64,000 nucleotides of DNA from Carcharhinus longimanus (lineage: Eukaryota). The notes beneath the pieces are model-generated. The model made no database searches, was not told the DNA's origin, and saw only the letters and a program-made list of their open reading frames with translations. This document shows positions 12,042 to 59,268 of this stretch, piece by piece (position 1 is the stretch's first letter; each line of letters opens with the position of its first letter). Made by a program: the position numbers and the translations under genes. The stretch spans positions 56,706,785 to 56,770,784 of the forward strand of contig JASCQW010000098.1 in NCBI GenBank assembly GCA_030264375.1, written 5' to 3'.

Positions 12042-12110
12042 TTGGACTTTAAGCTGGTGTTGTGGGATTTCTTTCTGTTTTACCCCAGTCTAATGCCAGC
12101 ATCTACACAT
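12042..12110 (+). mobile_element. Penelope-like family B 3' terminus
   Basis: TTGGACTTTAAGCTGGTGTTGTGGGATTTC..ACCCCAGTCTAATGCCAGCATCTACACATG matches the copies at 23522, 43254 and 59105. Confidence 0.7.
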
Positions 12111-20029: not shown

Positions 20030-21351
20030 GGCTGCGATTCTCCCAAAAGTGCTGAATTAGCAGAAAAATTGTTCTAAATCCCAACTGTTTTGTCGGTTCA
20101 GCTTCTCACCTGAATCTCCGCATTCTGTGCACTGGAGAGGTCATGATGTGGAGATGCCGGTGTTAAACTAGGGTAAACACAGTAAGAAGTCTCACAACGC
20201 TACGTTAGTCCCAGTCGTGAATCTCATTAAAAACCCAGAAGGCTGGAGGCNNNNNNNNNNNNNNNNNNNNNNNNNNNNNNNNNNNNNNNNNNNNNNNNNN
20301 NNNNNNNNNNNNNNNNNNNNNNNNNNNNNNNNNNNNNNNNNNNNNNNNNNNNNNNNNNNNNNNNNNNNNNNNNNNNNNNNNNNNNNNNNNNNNNNNNNNN
20401 NNNNNNNNNNNNNNNNNNNNNNNNNNNNNNNNNNNNNNNNNNNNNNNNNNNNNNNNNNNNNNNNNNNNNNNNNNNNNNNNNNNNNNNNNNNNNNNNNNNN
20501 NNNNNNNNNNNNNNNNNNNNNNNNNNNNNNNNNNNNNNNNNNNNNNNNNNNNNNNNNNNNNNNNNNNNNNNNNNNNNNNNNNNNNNNNNNNNNNNNNNNN
20601 NNNNNNNNNNNNNNNNNNNNNNNNNNNNNNNNNNNNNNNNNNNNNNNNNNNNNNNNNNNNNNNNNNNNNNNNNNNNNNNNNNNNNNNNNNNNNNNNNNNN
20701 NNNNNNNNNNNNNNNNNNNNNNNNNNNNNNNNNNNNNNNNNNNNNNNNNNNNNNNNNNNNNNNNNNNNNNNNNNNNNNNNNNNNNNNNNNNNNNNNNNNN
20801 NNNNNNNNNNNNNNNNNNNATTGACCCAAGCCCCACCCACAATAGGCCCCCATCTCCACTGCTCGATGCCCAGTGGGCAGGGCCAAGTTGCCCCCTGGAC
20901 CTGGGCACATTGACTCTTGGGCAGTGCCAAGAGGCTGGCACTGCCAGAGTGCCCATGCCTAGGGGCACCACCCACCACCTGACCCCCTGGGGGGGCCCTG
21001 ATTGCCCCCTTCAGTCCAGTGAGGTCCCCCATTAGTTCCCCAAATGTGGGGAGCTAGTGTAAACCCCGCCAGAATGAAGTACTCCTGGAGGGGTGGGAGA
21101 TTAAATCGGGACTGGTAAGTTCCCAATAATTACCTCTAAAATACATTTAAAACATATTAAAAAAAGATTCAAATGACTTACCTGCCTTCCCGCCAGTTTC
21201 CAGTGTAGTCTGGCCTGCAAGTGTTCACCGGCTCTGGGAAATGCTCATGCGTTCCTGAGACATGCGCAAATCCCGAAACAAGGCCGGCGACGCACATCTC
21301 CCACCACGACCCACCAGAAAAGTTGCAGGTTGCGATGGGAGAATCGCAGCC
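20030..21351. mobile_element. Harbinger-type non-autonomous element with perfect 16-bp TIRs
   Basis: GGCTGCGATTCTCCCA / TGGGAGAATCGCAGCC, TSD AGA; homologous to 40577-41609. Confidence 0.9.
20143..20208 (-). mobile_element. Penelope-like family B terminus nested in the MITE
   Basis: ATGATGTGGAGATGCCGG..AAGAAGTCTCACAAC is absent from the paralogous MITE position at ~40640. Confidence 0.75.
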
Positions 21352-23607
21352 AGAATCAGGCCATCACTGCATTCACTGTACAAACCTATTCAATATAACA
21401 AAACTGTTTGGTACCTATTTCAACATCCTGATAAACTGAGTTCAGTTATCACACAAAAAATGACCTATTTTTAATCTGATGTTTTTTGAAAATCTCCATG
21501 TGGATCAGGAAGAGCAGAAGTGTTTCTTCTGGTTGGACAATAAAACCTTACACTATCACTGCACCATTCTGTTCTCCTAACCTCCCCCAGTTACGAATAG
21601 CCTCGACCACCGCATACCTTATCCAGCCAGGGATCATTTTCATCAGTCCCTACTGGTGTCTGACAATCGCTCAAATTCCCACTCCCACTCATTGGCCATG
21701 CTGAGCGATGGAAAACATAATGCTGCTTTATTTTGTCTGATGTATCTTCAATGTGAAGTGCTAAAATGCAAAATAAAATGTTCCCTGGAGCAAAAGATTG
21801 CCCATCTGATACTTTGAACATATACTACACAAATTCAGTATCTGTCCTGTTTTCCACATTTCTGTCATATCACCGTGCCACAGCTTTGACTATGCATGTT
21901 TCATACATACATGCTGTGTCTCATGGTTAAGTCCCACAGCCAGAATATTAACCAGAGATGAGGAAGTAGATGGTCACTTCATGCACTGTCTGTGTCTAAG
22001 AAGAAGGTTAAGTATATCCAATATAGTCACTGCAGGAATTCTCTATTCAATTGTCAAATTCAGAGAAGATGGGAAATGCATGGGTAAATTAGTGAGAGTT
22101 GCTGGGAATTGCTCTCTCCTGAATTAACTGATTATTCTCCAGAACACTGCACAGTGTCTGAATGTATTGATTGAGACCACCCTGGAGGGTAGTGAATCAC
22201 AATGGAATACAGTATAAAGAGCTTGTCTATTTACAGCATAACAGATTGGAATTAAAGAAACTTTGATCTCCTCTAGTCATCTTGCACAAAGGGGATTTAA
22301 AGAGACTGTACTCCTTTTATCTAATGAGTCTGTGAGTCCGTTTTGCTTGTTCTGAAAATCTGGTTAACCAGTCAGAACAGCGGGAGCTATTGCTTTAGAT
22401 ACATTAGTGATGGATAAGGTTTAAGAAATGATGATCAGGGAAAAAACTAACAGGCACTTAGAGAGATTTGAGTTAATTAGGGAAGGCCAGCATGGATTTG
22501 TAAATGGCAGATCATGTTTGGCTAATCTAATTGAATTTTTTGATTAAGTAACAGAGGAAGTTAATGAAGGGAATGCAATGGACAGTGCCTGTATGGATTT
22601 TTAAAAAAGTGCCAAAGTGTCACATAAATAGCTGGTTAACACAATCAAGGCTTGTGGAATACAAGTGTTAGTGTCAGCTTGGATAAATGGATTAGGGACA
22701 GAACTGAGCCAAGGTAAATGTTTTTTCCTGAAACAGGAGGCTGGTTGACAGTAGTGCTCACTGCTCGGATCAGTGCTTCATATGTATACATATATAGGTG
22801 TGTGTAACTTGGATTTTGGAATGCAAAGCAAAATTTGTTGATGGCGCCAAACTCAGGAGTATGACAAACAGTGTGGGTGATACCAATCAATAGGACAAAG
22901 GCAAGCTAGCAGAATGGACAGATAAACAGCAGATAGATTTTAATAAAGAGAAATGTGAGGATATGTGTTTTGGCAGAAAGGATAGGGAAATGCAATATGT
23001 ACTTAATGGCACAGGTTACACTTCTCAAGGACAGATAGACCTGGGGGTCCATGTGCATAGATCGAGAGAGTGGTTAGCAAAGCATATGACATCTTGAGTT
23101 TCACAAACAGAAACACTGAGAAGAAAAGCAGGAGGGGTTAATCAGAACATTTATAAAGCTCTGACTGAGCTACAATTGCAACATTTTGCCCAGCATAGTC
23201 AACACACTTCATTCAGCAGCCTTGAGAGGGTGTAGAGGAGATTTATGTGGATTATTCCGAGGATTAATTTAGCTTCAATGTAATGTTGGGAGAATCTAGG
23301 ATTGTCCTTCTTGGAGTAAAGAAGGGGAGCTTTAATAGTGGTGTACAAGATAATGACAGATTTAGATAAGATAGCTAAAGAAAAGCTGTCCCAATTAGCA
23401 AATTGTAGAAGTATAACACGGCACAGATTTCAGGTTTTGGGCAGTAGATATAGGTGGGACAAAAGGAAGAACCTTCTTTACACAGGTAATGGGCTGAGAC
23501 TTTCTGTTTAAGTGATTTGTGATACGGAGATGCTGACATTGAACTGGGGTGGGCACAGCAAGAAATCTCACAACACCAGGTTAAAGTCCAATAGGTTTAT
23601 TCGGCAG

Positions 23608-23639
23608 CACAAGCTTTCGGAACGCTCCTTCATCAGATG
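23608..23639 (-). ncRNA. Minimal type I hammerhead ribozyme motif
   Basis: cau CUGAUGA a gga-gcgu-ucc GAAA g CUU gug; palindromic AGCU stem III. Confidence 0.65.
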
Positions 23640-23642
23640 AGT

Positions 23643-23677
23643 CACCTGATGAAGGAGCAGTGCTCTGAAAGTTCATG
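23643..23677 (+). ncRNA. Minimal type I hammerhead ribozyme motif, partly decayed
   Basis: cac CUGAUGA a ggagc-agu-gcucu GAAA g UUC aug; core intact, stem I has a mismatch. Confidence 0.55.
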
Positions 23678-23861
23678 CTACCAAATAAATCTGTTGGACT
23701 TTAACCTGGTGTTGTAAGTGATTTGTGGAAATGGAAATAATTAATGATTTCTAAACAATACTGGAAAGGAATTTGGAGGGATGAAATTTGCAGGGCAACA
23801 GAATTGAGTGAGGAAATGGGACTGACTGGATTATTCTGCAGAGAGTCAGTACAGACTCAAT

Positions 23862-26617: not shown

Positions 26618-27095
26618 GCTGCATGCATATTATGTGCTAACCCTAGCAATATCTGATCAGGTCATTGTTGGAAGTTCCCTGATGACTCAAGCCCAGTGCT
26701 GAACGCCAGGATATCAATCCAAGGAATTCCCCAGTTCAGGGAAAGGTTGCCCATGTTTCATAGTAACTATATTGACAATGGATAGTGAGTCAATTTTCGA
26801 AAGTGCTTATGAACAAAACACTTACTGTGGAAACCTAGCAGCACAGAGGCACCCAAATATATCTCAGACCACAAGAGTTTGCACATTGAAAGGTGATACT
26901 TTACATTTTTTGGGCTGAAACCTCAAGAAAGTTCACCACATCATCTCAGCAATGACTCACAAACAACAAAACTCACAGGAAAGCTGTGTCTCACATGTGT
27001 AACACATTTGCTGCACTCATTGAACCACAAAATTAAAATTAGATTCCAACAAGTCAGTTTCATCAAAGCAATTGAAACAGCTTGATTTTAAAAAG

Positions 27096-27313
27096 TTTTT
27101 ACTCCATTCTTAAAGTTACAAAGCCAAAGTGCAGAGCGGACCAGGCAAGACTTCAATCCAAGTCCTTGTTTGCTCCAAAAATCAACTCAAATTCGACCCA
27201 ATTCATGGTGCCCACATGAGACACAACAAGATCTGAGCTGACAAGATAAGGCATTGCACGCGATCTTGGTCTTAATCTGATGCTTGATCTTAGTCAAAAG
27301 GCTGACAAGCGAT
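27096..27313 (-). mobile_element. Short retroposon with U2 snRNA-derived 5' end
   Basis: Minus strand starts ATCGCTTGTCAGCCTTTTGACTAAGATCAAG (28/31 identical to U2 nt 1-31), then ~185 nt non-U2 body ending GGAGTAAAAA. Confidence 0.75.
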
Positions 27314-42000: not shown

Positions 42001-43253
42001 TTACTCTATTGTTCTCAACCTAGCCTCAATTTTGCATGATAGACCTTAGAGCTTTTACTTTGGTTTCTCGATTTCTTTTTTCTTGAATCAAGTTATTTTT
42101 TAACCTTTACTATGAATCTGAAGATATCTTTATTCCCTGCCCCAACTAGCTATGACTGTTTTTCATTGACATGTATTTTCTGTAATCATGTCAGTTGTTT
42201 GCTTTGTCACACCCCTCGCCCACCTTACTCACCTCTCATCTTTTGGTCAGTGATGTATAGCTCTCAAGTGTTGCAATCTTTCTCAGATATTTTAATGGGA
42301 GTAGTCTGCGCTTACTTCCATTGTGAACTACAAAGGTCCCTGTTGTGCAGTTATTTTATGATGGGAGAGGTTCTCTAACTACAGTAATGAATTGTCTCAT
42401 GATTTAGGCAGTCAGTAACTAAACTTTATACTTTTTTATCTTGTGATGTCTCCTATTAAATATCCATTGCTAAAATAACAAGCTCACAGTAAAAACCTGA
42501 GAAAGACTGATGTTTCAATTGAATTCAGCAGTTGCCAATTTATTTATAATCCATTTCCTACTGGGCTTTGTGTTATTGTTTTTTGTGTGTGTGTTTTGTT
42601 TTGTAAACAGTCTGGATCATTTCTGAGGTTGGACCATTTAGAAAGTCAAATAAAAAGTTTCCCCACATAACGTGGCAAAAGTCCTGCCAACAATAGTTCT
42701 TAACAAGTACTGTTCTTCAGAATCGTTGGCTCACTTGCTCCTAATGAATGAATGTAAGGAATAAATGATACAAAACGGCAGTTACTAAAAACATATCTTA
42801 CTAATACAGCTATCATCAATTGCCATAGCAACATCACAGCGAACCAGATTATATGGTTGCACTAAAAGAAAAAATGTTGCTATCGATTTGGGAATCAACT
42901 TCCACTTATAACTTAAATTAAATCAATCAGAACATGACTTTGATGGAAACCTGGTGTTAAAATATTTAAGAGATAGCTTTCCAACCTGAGGGAGTTGCCC
43001 ATTCTGTTATTCTTTCAGTATAGGGGGTCTGAAGTACAAGGAGGTTAAGCACTCTGGACTNNNNNNNNNNNNNNNNNNNNNNNNNNNNNNNNNNNGTCAA
43101 TTTGAGTGCCTGCAATCTGTGTTACTCATGTTGTCTCGCCATCATCACTCAAGTTTCATCAGTTAATTGAAGCAGAGTAGTTGGGTCACAGAAATGTTTC
43201 CAATAGCCATTTAAAATATCTGTTAATTTGTACGCATTGTATGGAAACAAGGC

Positions 43254-43301
43254 TTCTTACCTTGTTTACCCCAGTCCAACGCCGGCATCTCCATATCATA
43301 A
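43254..43301 (+). mobile_element. 48-bp Penelope-like family B terminus
   Basis: ACCCCAGTCCAACGCCGGCATCTCCATATCAT flanked by 9-bp TSD AAACAAGGC (43245, 43302). Confidence 0.8.
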
Positions 43302-57025: not shown

Positions 57026-57095
57026 GAATCGTAGTCGTGATGTGGATATGCCGGCGTTGGACTGGCCCAACGCCGGCATATCCACATCATGACTA
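57026..57095. mobile_element. Fold-back micro-insertion of Penelope-like family B terminus
   Basis: 30-bp arms (57031-57060, 57067-57096; 1 mismatch), 6-nt loop; 12-bp TSD CATTCAGATAGT (57014, 57096). Confidence 0.85.
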
Positions 57096-59104
57096 CATTC
57101 AGATAGTCACCCAGAGTTAGTTTTGAACAGATTCACTTGTTTCAATTTACCTTTGCGTAATTACATAAAATTATTTATAACTGATGCAAAAATCTGATAC
57201 AATGCAAATATCTTAAAAACACAGAAGTTGTTATCTATTGATAATTTTGTGTTGCAATGAGAAGCTAGTTAAGCGTAAACAACTAATTACATAAATATAT
57301 AATATTGCAGCTATTATTACTGTTTAGAAGTTCTTTGCTAGTTAAAGCTTAAAATGAAAGTTAGCTATAATATCTGTCTATTGTTCTCAGAGATCCCTAA
57401 TTCAGCGGTACTTAACTGATATCAACCTCTCTGCAATTTGTATTACAACCCAGGCTGGACCTATCTCCCTTGTTGTGCACTTCTCTCAGCACTTCACGCC
57501 TATCTCCAGTTTCAGCTTTTAGCGACCGTGCCCTCTGCATACCACTCTCCTGAGGGAAATCCATTGGACTAATATGGTAATGACCCTGCTGAGTCATTAG
57601 TTAAAAGGATGGCGCAGTAGCCATGAATGTGGACAGCTGCTTGAGAATCAAATTATCTTTCATTGTTTAAAGGACATTAGTTCAGACACTTCATCTGAAA
57701 CATAAACACCTCTCAGCCTGACCGTCCTGTTAATATAGTCCCTTTAGAATGACAGTGCAACGGTAGCATTTGTAACCTAATTTAGGACAAGGCTTCCCCA
57801 CTGTGTGGGAGCCTAGTCTGAAATTTCAAAACATGACTGAAATTAATACTGCAGAATGATATTTAAAGATTTATCTCTGTGATGCAGGGCAAAGATGATA
57901 ACAGAGCAAAGCCATGGGAGAGATATACTTGAAATCCTTAAGAAGATGTAATAAATAAACATGGCACACAAATGCTGAAAATATGCATGAAAAGAGAAAA
58001 TGCCAGAATTATATGGGAATTCTGCCAGTAACCAAAAGATTTATTTGTGAGTTGTCAACTCTGCATCCTTGAATAGTGTTCAAAGCTTTCTCCTGGACAT
58101 TCTGCAATACATTGAACCAGAGACTGGCCCTAACAGCACCAGACTATACACATCTCCGTCATTCTCTTTTCAAACAGAGGTTCTGGGGATACATTAAAAG
58201 ACAATGAACATCTGGGGAGATGAGTGCTACTTTTTTACAGCTGGTTTTACATTTTTCATTACTTAAAATATTTATGGCTGATGTGTTTCACGGTACTATA
58301 ATGTGTAAACCTCAGCTCCCGATATATTCACTTGCCTTAGTGTAAAGCTAGCATTTATAACGCAGTCAGTTACCAAAGAATCCTTTTCAGATCACACCAA
58401 TCCTTTGTGTAATGATATTCTTTCACAAGATCCTTCTTGTCAATGAAGGCAGTGGGAAAACATTACTGCTGACTTTCATTTTAGTTTTTAAGTGGCAAAA
58501 AACTTCTAAACGGTAATAATAGCTGTAATATCATACATTTGTGTAATCAGTTGTTTACCCTNNNNNNNNNNNNNNNNNNNNNNNNNNNNNNNNNNNNNNN
58601 NNNNNNNNNNNNNNNNNNNNNNNNNNNNNNNNNNNNNNNNNNNNNNNNNNNNNNNNNNNNNNNNNNNNNNNNNNNNNNNNNNNNNNNNNNNNNNNNNNNN
58701 NNNNNNNNNNNNNNNNNNNNNNNNNNNNNNNNNNNNNNNNNNNNNNNNNNNNNNNNNNNNNNNNNNNNNNNNNNNNNNNNNNNNNNNNNNNNNNNNNNNN
58801 NNNNNNNNNNNNNNNNNNNNNNNNNNNNNNNNNNNNNNNNNNNNNNNNNNNNNNNNNNNNNNNNNNNNNNNNNNNNNNNNNNNNNNNNNNNNNNNNNNNN
58901 NNNNNNNNNNNNNNNNNNNNNNNNNNNNNNNNNNNNNNNNNNNNNNNNNNNNNNNNNNNNNNNNNNNNNNNNNNNNNNNNNNNNNNNNNNNNNNNNNNNN
59001 NNNNNNNNNNNNNNNNNNNNNNNNNNNNNNNNNNNNNNNNNNNNNNNNNNNNNNNNNNNNNNNNNNNNNNNNNNNNNNNNNNNNNNNNNNNNNNNNNNNN
59101 NNNN

Positions 59105-59268
59105 GTTGGACTGAGGTAAAACACAAAGAAATCCCACAACACCAGTTTAAAGTCCAAACAGGTTTATTTGTAGCAAAAGCCACAAGCTTTCGGGACAGCT
59201 TGGCCCTTCGTCAGGCGGTTGGGAGTTCAGAACTTTAAACTGGTGTTATGGGATTTCTTTGTGTTTTA
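59105..59268. mobile_element. Penelope-like family B variant, asymmetric inverted termini
   Basis: AAAACACAAAGAAATCCCACAACACCAGTTTAAAGT is inverted as ACTTTAAACTGGTGTTATGGGATTTCTTTGTGTTTT. Confidence 0.8.
59180..59218 (-). ncRNA. Minimal type I hammerhead ribozyme motif, apparently intact
   Basis: ccgc CUGACGA a ggg-ccaagcugu-ccc GAAA g CUU gugg. Confidence 0.7.

What the first reader, a model, noticed from the sequence alone, without database searches (positions are those of the whole stretch)
23522..23714. Twin divergent hammerhead ribozymes in a 193-bp retro-insertion with a perfect 13-bp TSD
Seen: CUGAUGA/GAAA cores on both strands, with their stem I 5' arms only 3 nt apart across the axis TGAGTCA. 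Each core is followed by a (near-)AATAAA signal and the family B terminus, and the unit is inserted into a CR1. Either transcription direction yields one hammerhead embedded in a ~72-bp hairpin. Known: minimal PLE hammerheads with palindromic stem III, and retrozymes as non-coding hammerhead retroelements. Inference: a bidirectional self-cleaving or dsRNA-forming mobile cassette that could act on host pre-mRNA. Its architecture parallels family A, whose sequence is unrelated. I do not know whether this shark family has been described.
Basis: partly seen in the sequence, partly recalled or inferred. Interest (0 to 1): 0.7.

Follow-up and report, generated by a model that had tools for sequence, protein, structure and literature searches.

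The report
Twin Penelope leader copies in shark
This 193-base hairpin is an old insertion of two back-to-back copies of the front end of a Penelope-type jumping gene, a layout already known for this group; its two ribozymes are predicted to be locked in the hairpin, but the ends of such copies likely record where the element's RNA starts and how it is copied into both sides of a DNA cut.

Summary
In detail: 13-bp TSD, two minimal type-I hammerhead cores head to head, AATAAA on both arms, inside an older CR1-like LINE. The reading as a bidirectional self-cleaving cassette is not supported. The arms are two copies of the ~125-nt mRNA leader of an abundant Neptune-like Penelope element (RT, CxxC linker, GIY-YIG); the long arm ends at its start codon. 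1,105 loci carry exact twin cores, with spacers of 4-28 nt (9 nt, as here, in 5 of 49), so the axis recurs but is not fixed. Arms decay independently; forcing the hammerhead fold costs 30-38 kcal/mol; the plus-strand copy has lost the pair at its cleavage site. Inverted truncated copy, one-sided tail and TSD are published, and this scan noted the layout in at least 13 other genomes. Possibly new: arm 5' ends pile up at an initiator-like A about 30 nt below a TATA-like box, not at the cleavage site, and often carry an extra G (56 of 77). This suggests run-off copying of capped, uncut RNA from two start sites (34 of 38 pairs long+short), then end-joining. No RNA data tested this.

The parts
23509..23521 (.). 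left copy of the 13-bp target-site duplication
   Evidence: exact direct repeat
23715..23727 (.). right copy of the 13-bp target-site duplication
23522..23643 (-). long arm: copy of the Penelope-like mRNA leader from the predicted transcription start (A at 23642; 23643 is either the extra G or part of the other arm) to just before the ORF start codon
   Evidence: profile match -5 to +49; tail-ATG-ORF junctions
23522..23570 (-). one-sided extension (includes the 'tail' between the short and long 3' ends)
   Evidence: tail concept PMC8557442, PMC11167929
23608..23639 (-). minimal type-I hammerhead motif, core intact, stem I 3 bp with U-G, stem II shortened; predicted cleavage after 23611
23638..23644 (.). 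junction of the two arms (centre 23641), with 1-3 nt of microhomology
23642..23714 (+). short arm: second copy of the leader, without tail
23643..23677 (+). minimal type-I hammerhead motif, damaged at stem I base pair 1, G10.1-C11.1 and the stem III palindrome; predicted cleavage after 23674
23684..23689 (+). AATAAA in the short arm (mirror copy 23596-23601 on -); part of the parent sequence, no poly(A)
   Evidence: alignment
22500..23508 (+). host: degraded LINE ORF2 3' part (CR1-like by recalled motifs), continuing at 23728 to about 23870

Best explanation
The insert is a decayed head-to-head pair of copies of the leader of a Neptune-like Penelope retrotransposon, likely made in one event in which both ends of a staggered DNA cut primed reverse transcription on uncut, likely capped element RNA, one from the start codon and one from a nearer site, with both copies likely running to the RNA's 5' end and then being joined. 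Shown: parent anatomy (TATA-like box, initiator-like A, hammerhead, short end, tail, ATG, RT-CxxC-GIY-YIG ORF); TSD; long+short pairing; 5' ends clustered just upstream of the hammerhead core; excess G one base before the initiator-like A; variable spacers with fillers. Inferred: that this A is the transcription start, that the G comes from copying the cap (or untemplated addition at the RNA end), two-sided priming, and end-joining. Two ends that stop at the start site can pair through the interrupted palindrome at the axis, which would give the 9-nt spacer seen here. The hammerheads are passengers, predicted inactive in this hairpin. Identity as a Penelope-like insertion about 0.95; the full mechanism about 0.6.
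For: Parent: L180 joins RT, linker and endonuclease remnants to the same hammerhead end; RVT_1 E 4e-10, GIY-YIG E 0.012, below cut-off; closest proteins from two sharks at 78 and 74%. The tail runs straight into the ORF's ATG in 10 of 25 N-terminal loci. Pairing: 34 long+short, 4 short+short, 0 long+long of 38 readable pairs among 90 anchors, Fisher p 2e-7. 5' ends: 26 of 76 at -12..+1 from C3, 8 of 76 around the cleavage site; stop rate 0.040 per nt there against 0.005-0.008 downstream and under 0.001 beyond -55. TATA-like motif 29-30 nt above the A at -5 in 18 of 34 parent-linked arms; base -6 is C in 33 of 34. Non-C at -6: G 66, T 19, A 15 of the first 100 of 1,706 matches; control at -2: G 47, A 53 of the first 100 of 590, Fisher p 1.6e-6; among 77 arms truncated there 56 G; 18 G of 24 after removing every case that partner or TSD could explain. 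TSD in 17 of 37 pairs against 5 of 155 random. PMC11167929: a PLE protein nicks and extends both strands, has two internal start sites that bound the tail, and does not need hammerhead cleavage.
Against: No RNA evidence for the start site or cap. A second control at -5 also had G as commonest letter (46 of 100), though A-to-G transitions inflate it. 37 of 56 G cases could come from the partner arm by a lenient test. One long+long pair lies in this window (57034-57094). 27 of 70 evaluable anchors have no nearby partner. Arms usually share the subfamily tag (30 of 33) and share more rare variants than chance (24 against 9), which fold-back copying also predicts. This copy's short arm ends about 15 nt before the modal short end. 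Profile boundaries are uncertain by a few bases, and assembly gaps remove the youngest palindromes.
Confidence: 0.6

Rival explanations
1. Fold-back or self-priming on one template (as proposed for rotifer Penelope elements, on an antisense RNA) makes the second arm as a copy of the first.
For: Subfamily tags agree in 30 of 33 pairs; 24 shared rare variants against 9.2 expected, in 18 of 79 pairs; some junctions are clean palindromes; PMC3846280 argues for self-priming from junction palindromes.
Against: Spacers run 4-28 nt, often with filler; each arm ends at one of two sense-strand start sites; 3 of 33 pairs differ at a two-base, non-CpG tag; the extra G marks a sense-RNA 5' end.
Confidence: 0.18
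2. Same element and two-sided priming, but the 5' ends reflect the reverse transcriptase stalling at the folded hammerhead, and the G reflects end-joining that favours G, not a capped RNA end.
For: Stops are spread over about -20..+15, not one base; G also leads at -5; many G are explainable by the partner arm.
Against: The G excess is position-specific (66:15 against 47:53 for A) and persists in unexplained cases (18 of 24); TATA-to-A spacing of about 30 nt fits a start site; stop rate falls to near zero beyond -55.
Confidence: 0.17
3. The twin unit is itself a mobile, non-coding, bidirectional ribozyme cassette (retrozyme- or MITE-like) copied from a master with this axis.
For: 40 of 40 scored look-alikes share the overall layout (chosen by likeness to this copy); 18 loci carry the exact 33-nt consensus axis; 9 nt is one of the modal spacers.
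Against: 9-nt spacer in only 5 of 49 unbiased twin-core loci; short ends vary from copy to copy; same-side arms of different loci are barely more alike than opposite arms (0.847, 0.842 against 0.839); no tandem units; hammerhead fold 30-38 kcal/mol above the hairpin.
Confidence: 0.05

Closest known systems
Endonuclease-bearing Penelope-like element insertions with an inverted 5'-truncated copy, one-sided 30-40 bp tail and TSD (PMC8557442, PMC3846280, PMC2377424; passages read)
   Same: Head-to-head inverted copy, tail on one end that extends into the ORF start, TSD of about 7-15 bp, TATA- and initiator-like motifs in the pseudo-LTR.
   Different: Here both arms are only the leader (70-125 nt), in very high copy; the passages read do not report 5' ends clustered at the initiator or an extra G.
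Anole Poseidon element in vitro (PMC11167929; main text read)
   Same: Two internal start sites bounding the tail, both target strands extended, hammerhead cleavage dispensable.
   Different: There the ORF starts inside the hammerhead and the start sites lie 111-118 nt into the ORF; here the hammerhead is in the 5' leader and the long start site is at the ATG. Parent has the CxxC linker of Neptune/Nematis.
Minimal PLE hammerheads (PMC4209133; results and discussion read)
   Same: Type I core, extra base after position 9, near-absent palindromic stem III, short stem I; opposite-strand pairs 100-700 bp apart were noted in a schistosome; single motifs were inactive in vitro.
   Different: Cores here are 9 nt apart and base-pair with each other.
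Non-LTR retrozymes (10.64898/2026.07.22.740005; part 1 of 5 and passages read)
   Same: Non-coding, PLE-derived, type I hammerhead.
   Different: Retrozymes are head-to-tail tandem units with two same-strand ribozymes; this is an inverted pair with one ribozyme per strand.

Membership tests
Endonuclease-bearing Penelope-like element | Parent ORF with PLE-type RT and C-terminal GIY-YIG endonuclease linked to this sequence | tested here: met
   (RVT_1 above cut-off; GIY-YIG E 0.012 below cut-off, above cut-off in relative P0004)
Endonuclease-bearing Penelope-like element | Pseudo-LTR sequence found both after the stop codon and before the start codon | tested here: met
   hammerhead core 165-343 nt after the stop in 15 of 32 loci; directly before the ATG in 10 of 25 loci
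Endonuclease-bearing Penelope-like element | Inverted 5'-truncated copy with one-sided tail and TSD | tested here: met
Neptune clade | Zn-finger-like linker between RT and endonuclease | tested here: met
   C-x4-CxxC seen in translations; feature per PMC8557442, shared with Nematis
Neptune clade | Phylogenetic placement with named Neptune elements | not tested
   no named reference sequences on hand
Minimal type-I hammerhead ribozyme | Conserved core, stems I and II, palindromic stem III remnant | tested here: inconclusive
   met in the parent, with stem II covariation; in this copy the minus arm is marginal and the plus arm damaged
Minimal type-I hammerhead ribozyme | Self-cleavage | not testable with these tools
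   folding predicts sequestration
Non-LTR retrozyme | Tandem head-to-tail units with at least two same-strand hammerheads | tested here: not met
   inverted, one per strand
Non-LTR retrozyme | Circular RNA intermediate | not testable with these tools
   no RNA run available
Self-propagating non-autonomous unit (MITE/SINE-like) | Fixed internal junction and both ends shared among copies | tested here: not met

The most novel reading that the evidence does not exclude
Shark genomes hold on the order of 10^5 base-resolution fossils of the Penelope insertion reaction: a two-headed enzyme primes both target strands on the capped, uncut mRNA leader, one at the start codon and one about 35 nt upstream, runs each to the cap (leaving an extra G) and the two cDNA ends are joined, so that twin hammerheads are the expected short product and the inverted pseudo-LTR needs no antisense template.
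Probability: 0.5. Interest if true: 0.6.

Novelty: new member of a known kind. Interest (0 to 1): 0.36.

Why it matters
The locus itself is ordinary. The family statistics bear on an open question: how Penelope-like elements make inverted pseudo-LTRs and tails (called undefined in PMC8557442; antisense self-priming was proposed in PMC3846280). A start-site pile-up with an extra G, none at the ribozyme cut site, and long+short pairing give sharp predictions for an existing in vitro system. They also agree with the finding that hammerhead cleavage is not part of insertion, although the ribozyme's stem II covaries in the parent and so likely has another role.

Tried and rejected
Rfam found no hammerhead family match. 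Long 'open frames' listed by the genome search were assembly gaps. No RNA holder listed for the locus; this says nothing on expression. DNA contigs break inside the repeat, so conservation of the insert between species could not be measured. Replication of the extra-G signal in the other species was not obtained. A pile-up of 5' ends at the cleavage site was looked for and not found as a main peak (8 of 76), though a few arms do start there. Selection against the antisense splice-donor-like sequence over the ribozyme start was considered and dropped untested: the same C-to-T change is common elsewhere in the arm. A G-bearing parent subfamily was rejected as source of the extra G: only 2 of 58 G cases continue into parent sequence. 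Literature searches for an extra G or cap signature in Penelope elements found nothing, nor a paper on this shark family; two scan look-ups on it were empty. PMC7353768 held no usable passage, so cap copying as a source of a 5' G is recalled knowledge. Repbase, Dfam and paper supplements were not seen and may already list the family.

Full report
Observation. The RNA of either strand folds into one long hairpin, z -13 and -15. The inverted repeat covers 23571-23714; 23522-23570 is a one-sided extension. Related repeat copies run collinear across the site without the insert, and the flank translates to a decayed LINE ORF2 end ('CR1' is by recalled motifs). A contig of organism B crosses the left junction by 34 letters with 13 differences in 329; contigs of B and C cross the right junction by only 24-26 letters. 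The insertion is therefore older than the split from B.

The family. A 31-nt piece of the arm has 17,351 exact matches in the genome, reversed control 0. A blind sample gave 39 arms in 478 kb of called bases, control 0, many beside assembly gaps (20 of the 60 stretches came from a region that looked dense), roughly 10^5 arms. Arms that extend further upstream share a 3' UTR and an endonuclease C-terminus. L180 and others link RT, a C-x4-CxxC linker and GIY-YIG motifs to the hammerhead end; RVT_1 passes its cut-off, GIY-YIG is weak; nearest proteins are from two sharks. In 10 of 25 loci found with the ORF's N-terminus the whole arm lies directly before the ATG, and in about 9 more the last bases of the tail do. 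The arm is thus the element's 5' leader, repeated at its 3' end as pseudo-LTR: a Neptune-like Penelope element.

Is the axis special? The 40 best look-alikes share the layout, but they were chosen for likeness; in the 29 distinct ones aligned the long end is fixed and the short end and junction vary. Unbiased: 1,105 loci have two exact cores within 30 nt; in the first 49 the spacer is 4-28 nt, 9 nt in 5 (the longer of two nested matches at one locus was dropped). The exact 33-nt consensus axis occurs at 18 loci. Many spacers hold short fillers copied from nearby sequence. Of 90 anchors taken in contig order, 43 have a nearby inverted partner, 27 none, 12 abut gaps, 8 have long arms. Of 38 pairs with both ends readable, 34 are long+short, 4 short+short (some are decayed tails), none long+long; one long+long pair does lie in this window at 57034-57094. 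TSDs of 7-15 nt: 17 of 37 pairs, 6 of 28 solos, 5 of 155 random.

Are the ribozymes or the hairpin maintained? In parent-linked arms stem II covaries between subfamilies (30 of 53 arms parsed), so the motif mattered to the parent. In this copy the plus motif has a mismatch at the cleavage-site pair, a G-U closing stem II and a broken stem III palindrome; the minus motif has an intact core with short stems. Forcing the ribozyme fold costs 29.9 and 38.3 kcal/mol, and transcript prefixes already hold the core in duplex. PMC4209133 found single minimal motifs inactive. Arms of one locus are 85.6% alike against 83.9% between loci (29 loci); of 618 rare non-CpG variants in 79 pairs only 24 sites are shared (9.2 expected); a subfamily tag agrees in 30 of 33 pairs. 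Arms usually come from one donor type and then decay separately. Same-side arms of different loci are hardly closer than opposite arms, which argues against a twin master.

Where arms stop. Relative to C3, 26 of 76 anchors without upstream gaps end at -12..+1, 8 near the cleavage site, 8 run past -55. The parent has an initiator-like A at -5 with a TATA-like motif 29-30 nt above it in 18 of 34 readable arms, and C at -6 in 33 of 34 (the set holds a few duplicates). Among matches with a non-C at -6, the first 100 of 1,706 read G 66, T 19, A 15 (counted by eye); at -2, also C before A, G 47 and A 53 of the first 100 of 590. Of 90 of those 100 loci fetched, 13 continue into parent sequence (10 T); the 77 truncated read 56 G, 14 A, 7 T; after removing all that partner or TSD might explain, 18 G of 24, against 0.28 background. 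Against: at -5 G also leads, 46 of 100, partly through A-to-G transitions, and the partner test removes 37 G cases. In this copy the long arm reaches -5 and is followed by G, but that base can equally belong to the other arm.

Mechanism. Inferred: a capped, uncut leader is the template; both target ends prime, one at the ATG-proximal site and one at the nearer site; both cDNAs run off the 5' end, often gaining a C opposite the cap (recalled for other reverse transcriptases; no paper found); the ends are trimmed or filled and joined. This fits PMC11167929 (both strands extended, two start sites, cleavage dispensable, predicted dimer) and differs from the antisense self-priming of PMC3846280. 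Fold-back and stalling remain rivals.

What is known. Inverted truncated copy, tail and TSD: PMC8557442, PMC3846280, PMC2377424 (passages). Minimal hammerheads and opposite-strand pairs: PMC4209133 (parts 1-2 of 4). In vitro mechanism: PMC11167929 (parts 1-2 of 4). Retrozymes: 10.64898/2026.07.22.740005 (part 1 of 5, passages). PMC6155905 seen in a listing only. No supplements were read. This scan holds 138 notes on the same layout in at least 13 genomes; two look-ups for the start-site or cap reading were empty.

Verdict. The family-level start-site and extra-G signature is the part worth following. Interest 0.36.

Noticed in passing
window 57034-57094: Near-perfect 61-nt palindrome of two tail ends of a related subfamily, both long, with a 12-nt direct repeat in the flanks; an exception to long+short pairing.
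   Followed up: partly
window 59104-59259: Second inverted pair of a related subfamily with one hammerhead (core at 59214, minus strand), beside an assembly gap.
   Followed up: partly
window 12042-12110, 20145-20211, 43250-43296: Further short tail-end fragments of the same family.
   Followed up: no
L180:130-415 and 1630-1970: Inverted pair whose two ends continue for about 30 nt into the same non-element sequence in mirror image; possibly both arms primed in a read-through flank of one donor.
   Followed up: no
L358, L360, L364, L365, L368, L371, L372, L373, L375 (before the ATG): Copies with the ORF start often begin only 8-40 nt upstream of the ATG, inside the tail, without hammerhead.
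   Followed up: no
window 23634-23642 and family consensus: The antisense strand over stem I and the first core bases reads as a consensus 5' splice site in the family; it is mutated in this copy's long arm.
   Followed up: no
L022, L028, L117: Pairs whose arms carry different subfamily tags at two non-CpG bases; candidates for two-template insertions.
   Followed up: partly
window 27094-27313 (-): Weak Rfam U2 snRNA match (E 0.58, below gathering score); probably a U2 pseudogene fragment.
   Followed up: no
G000:C122:38284105-38284314 and L284: Twin units repeated in tandem about 180-200 nt apart; local duplication or assembly artefact.
   Followed up: no
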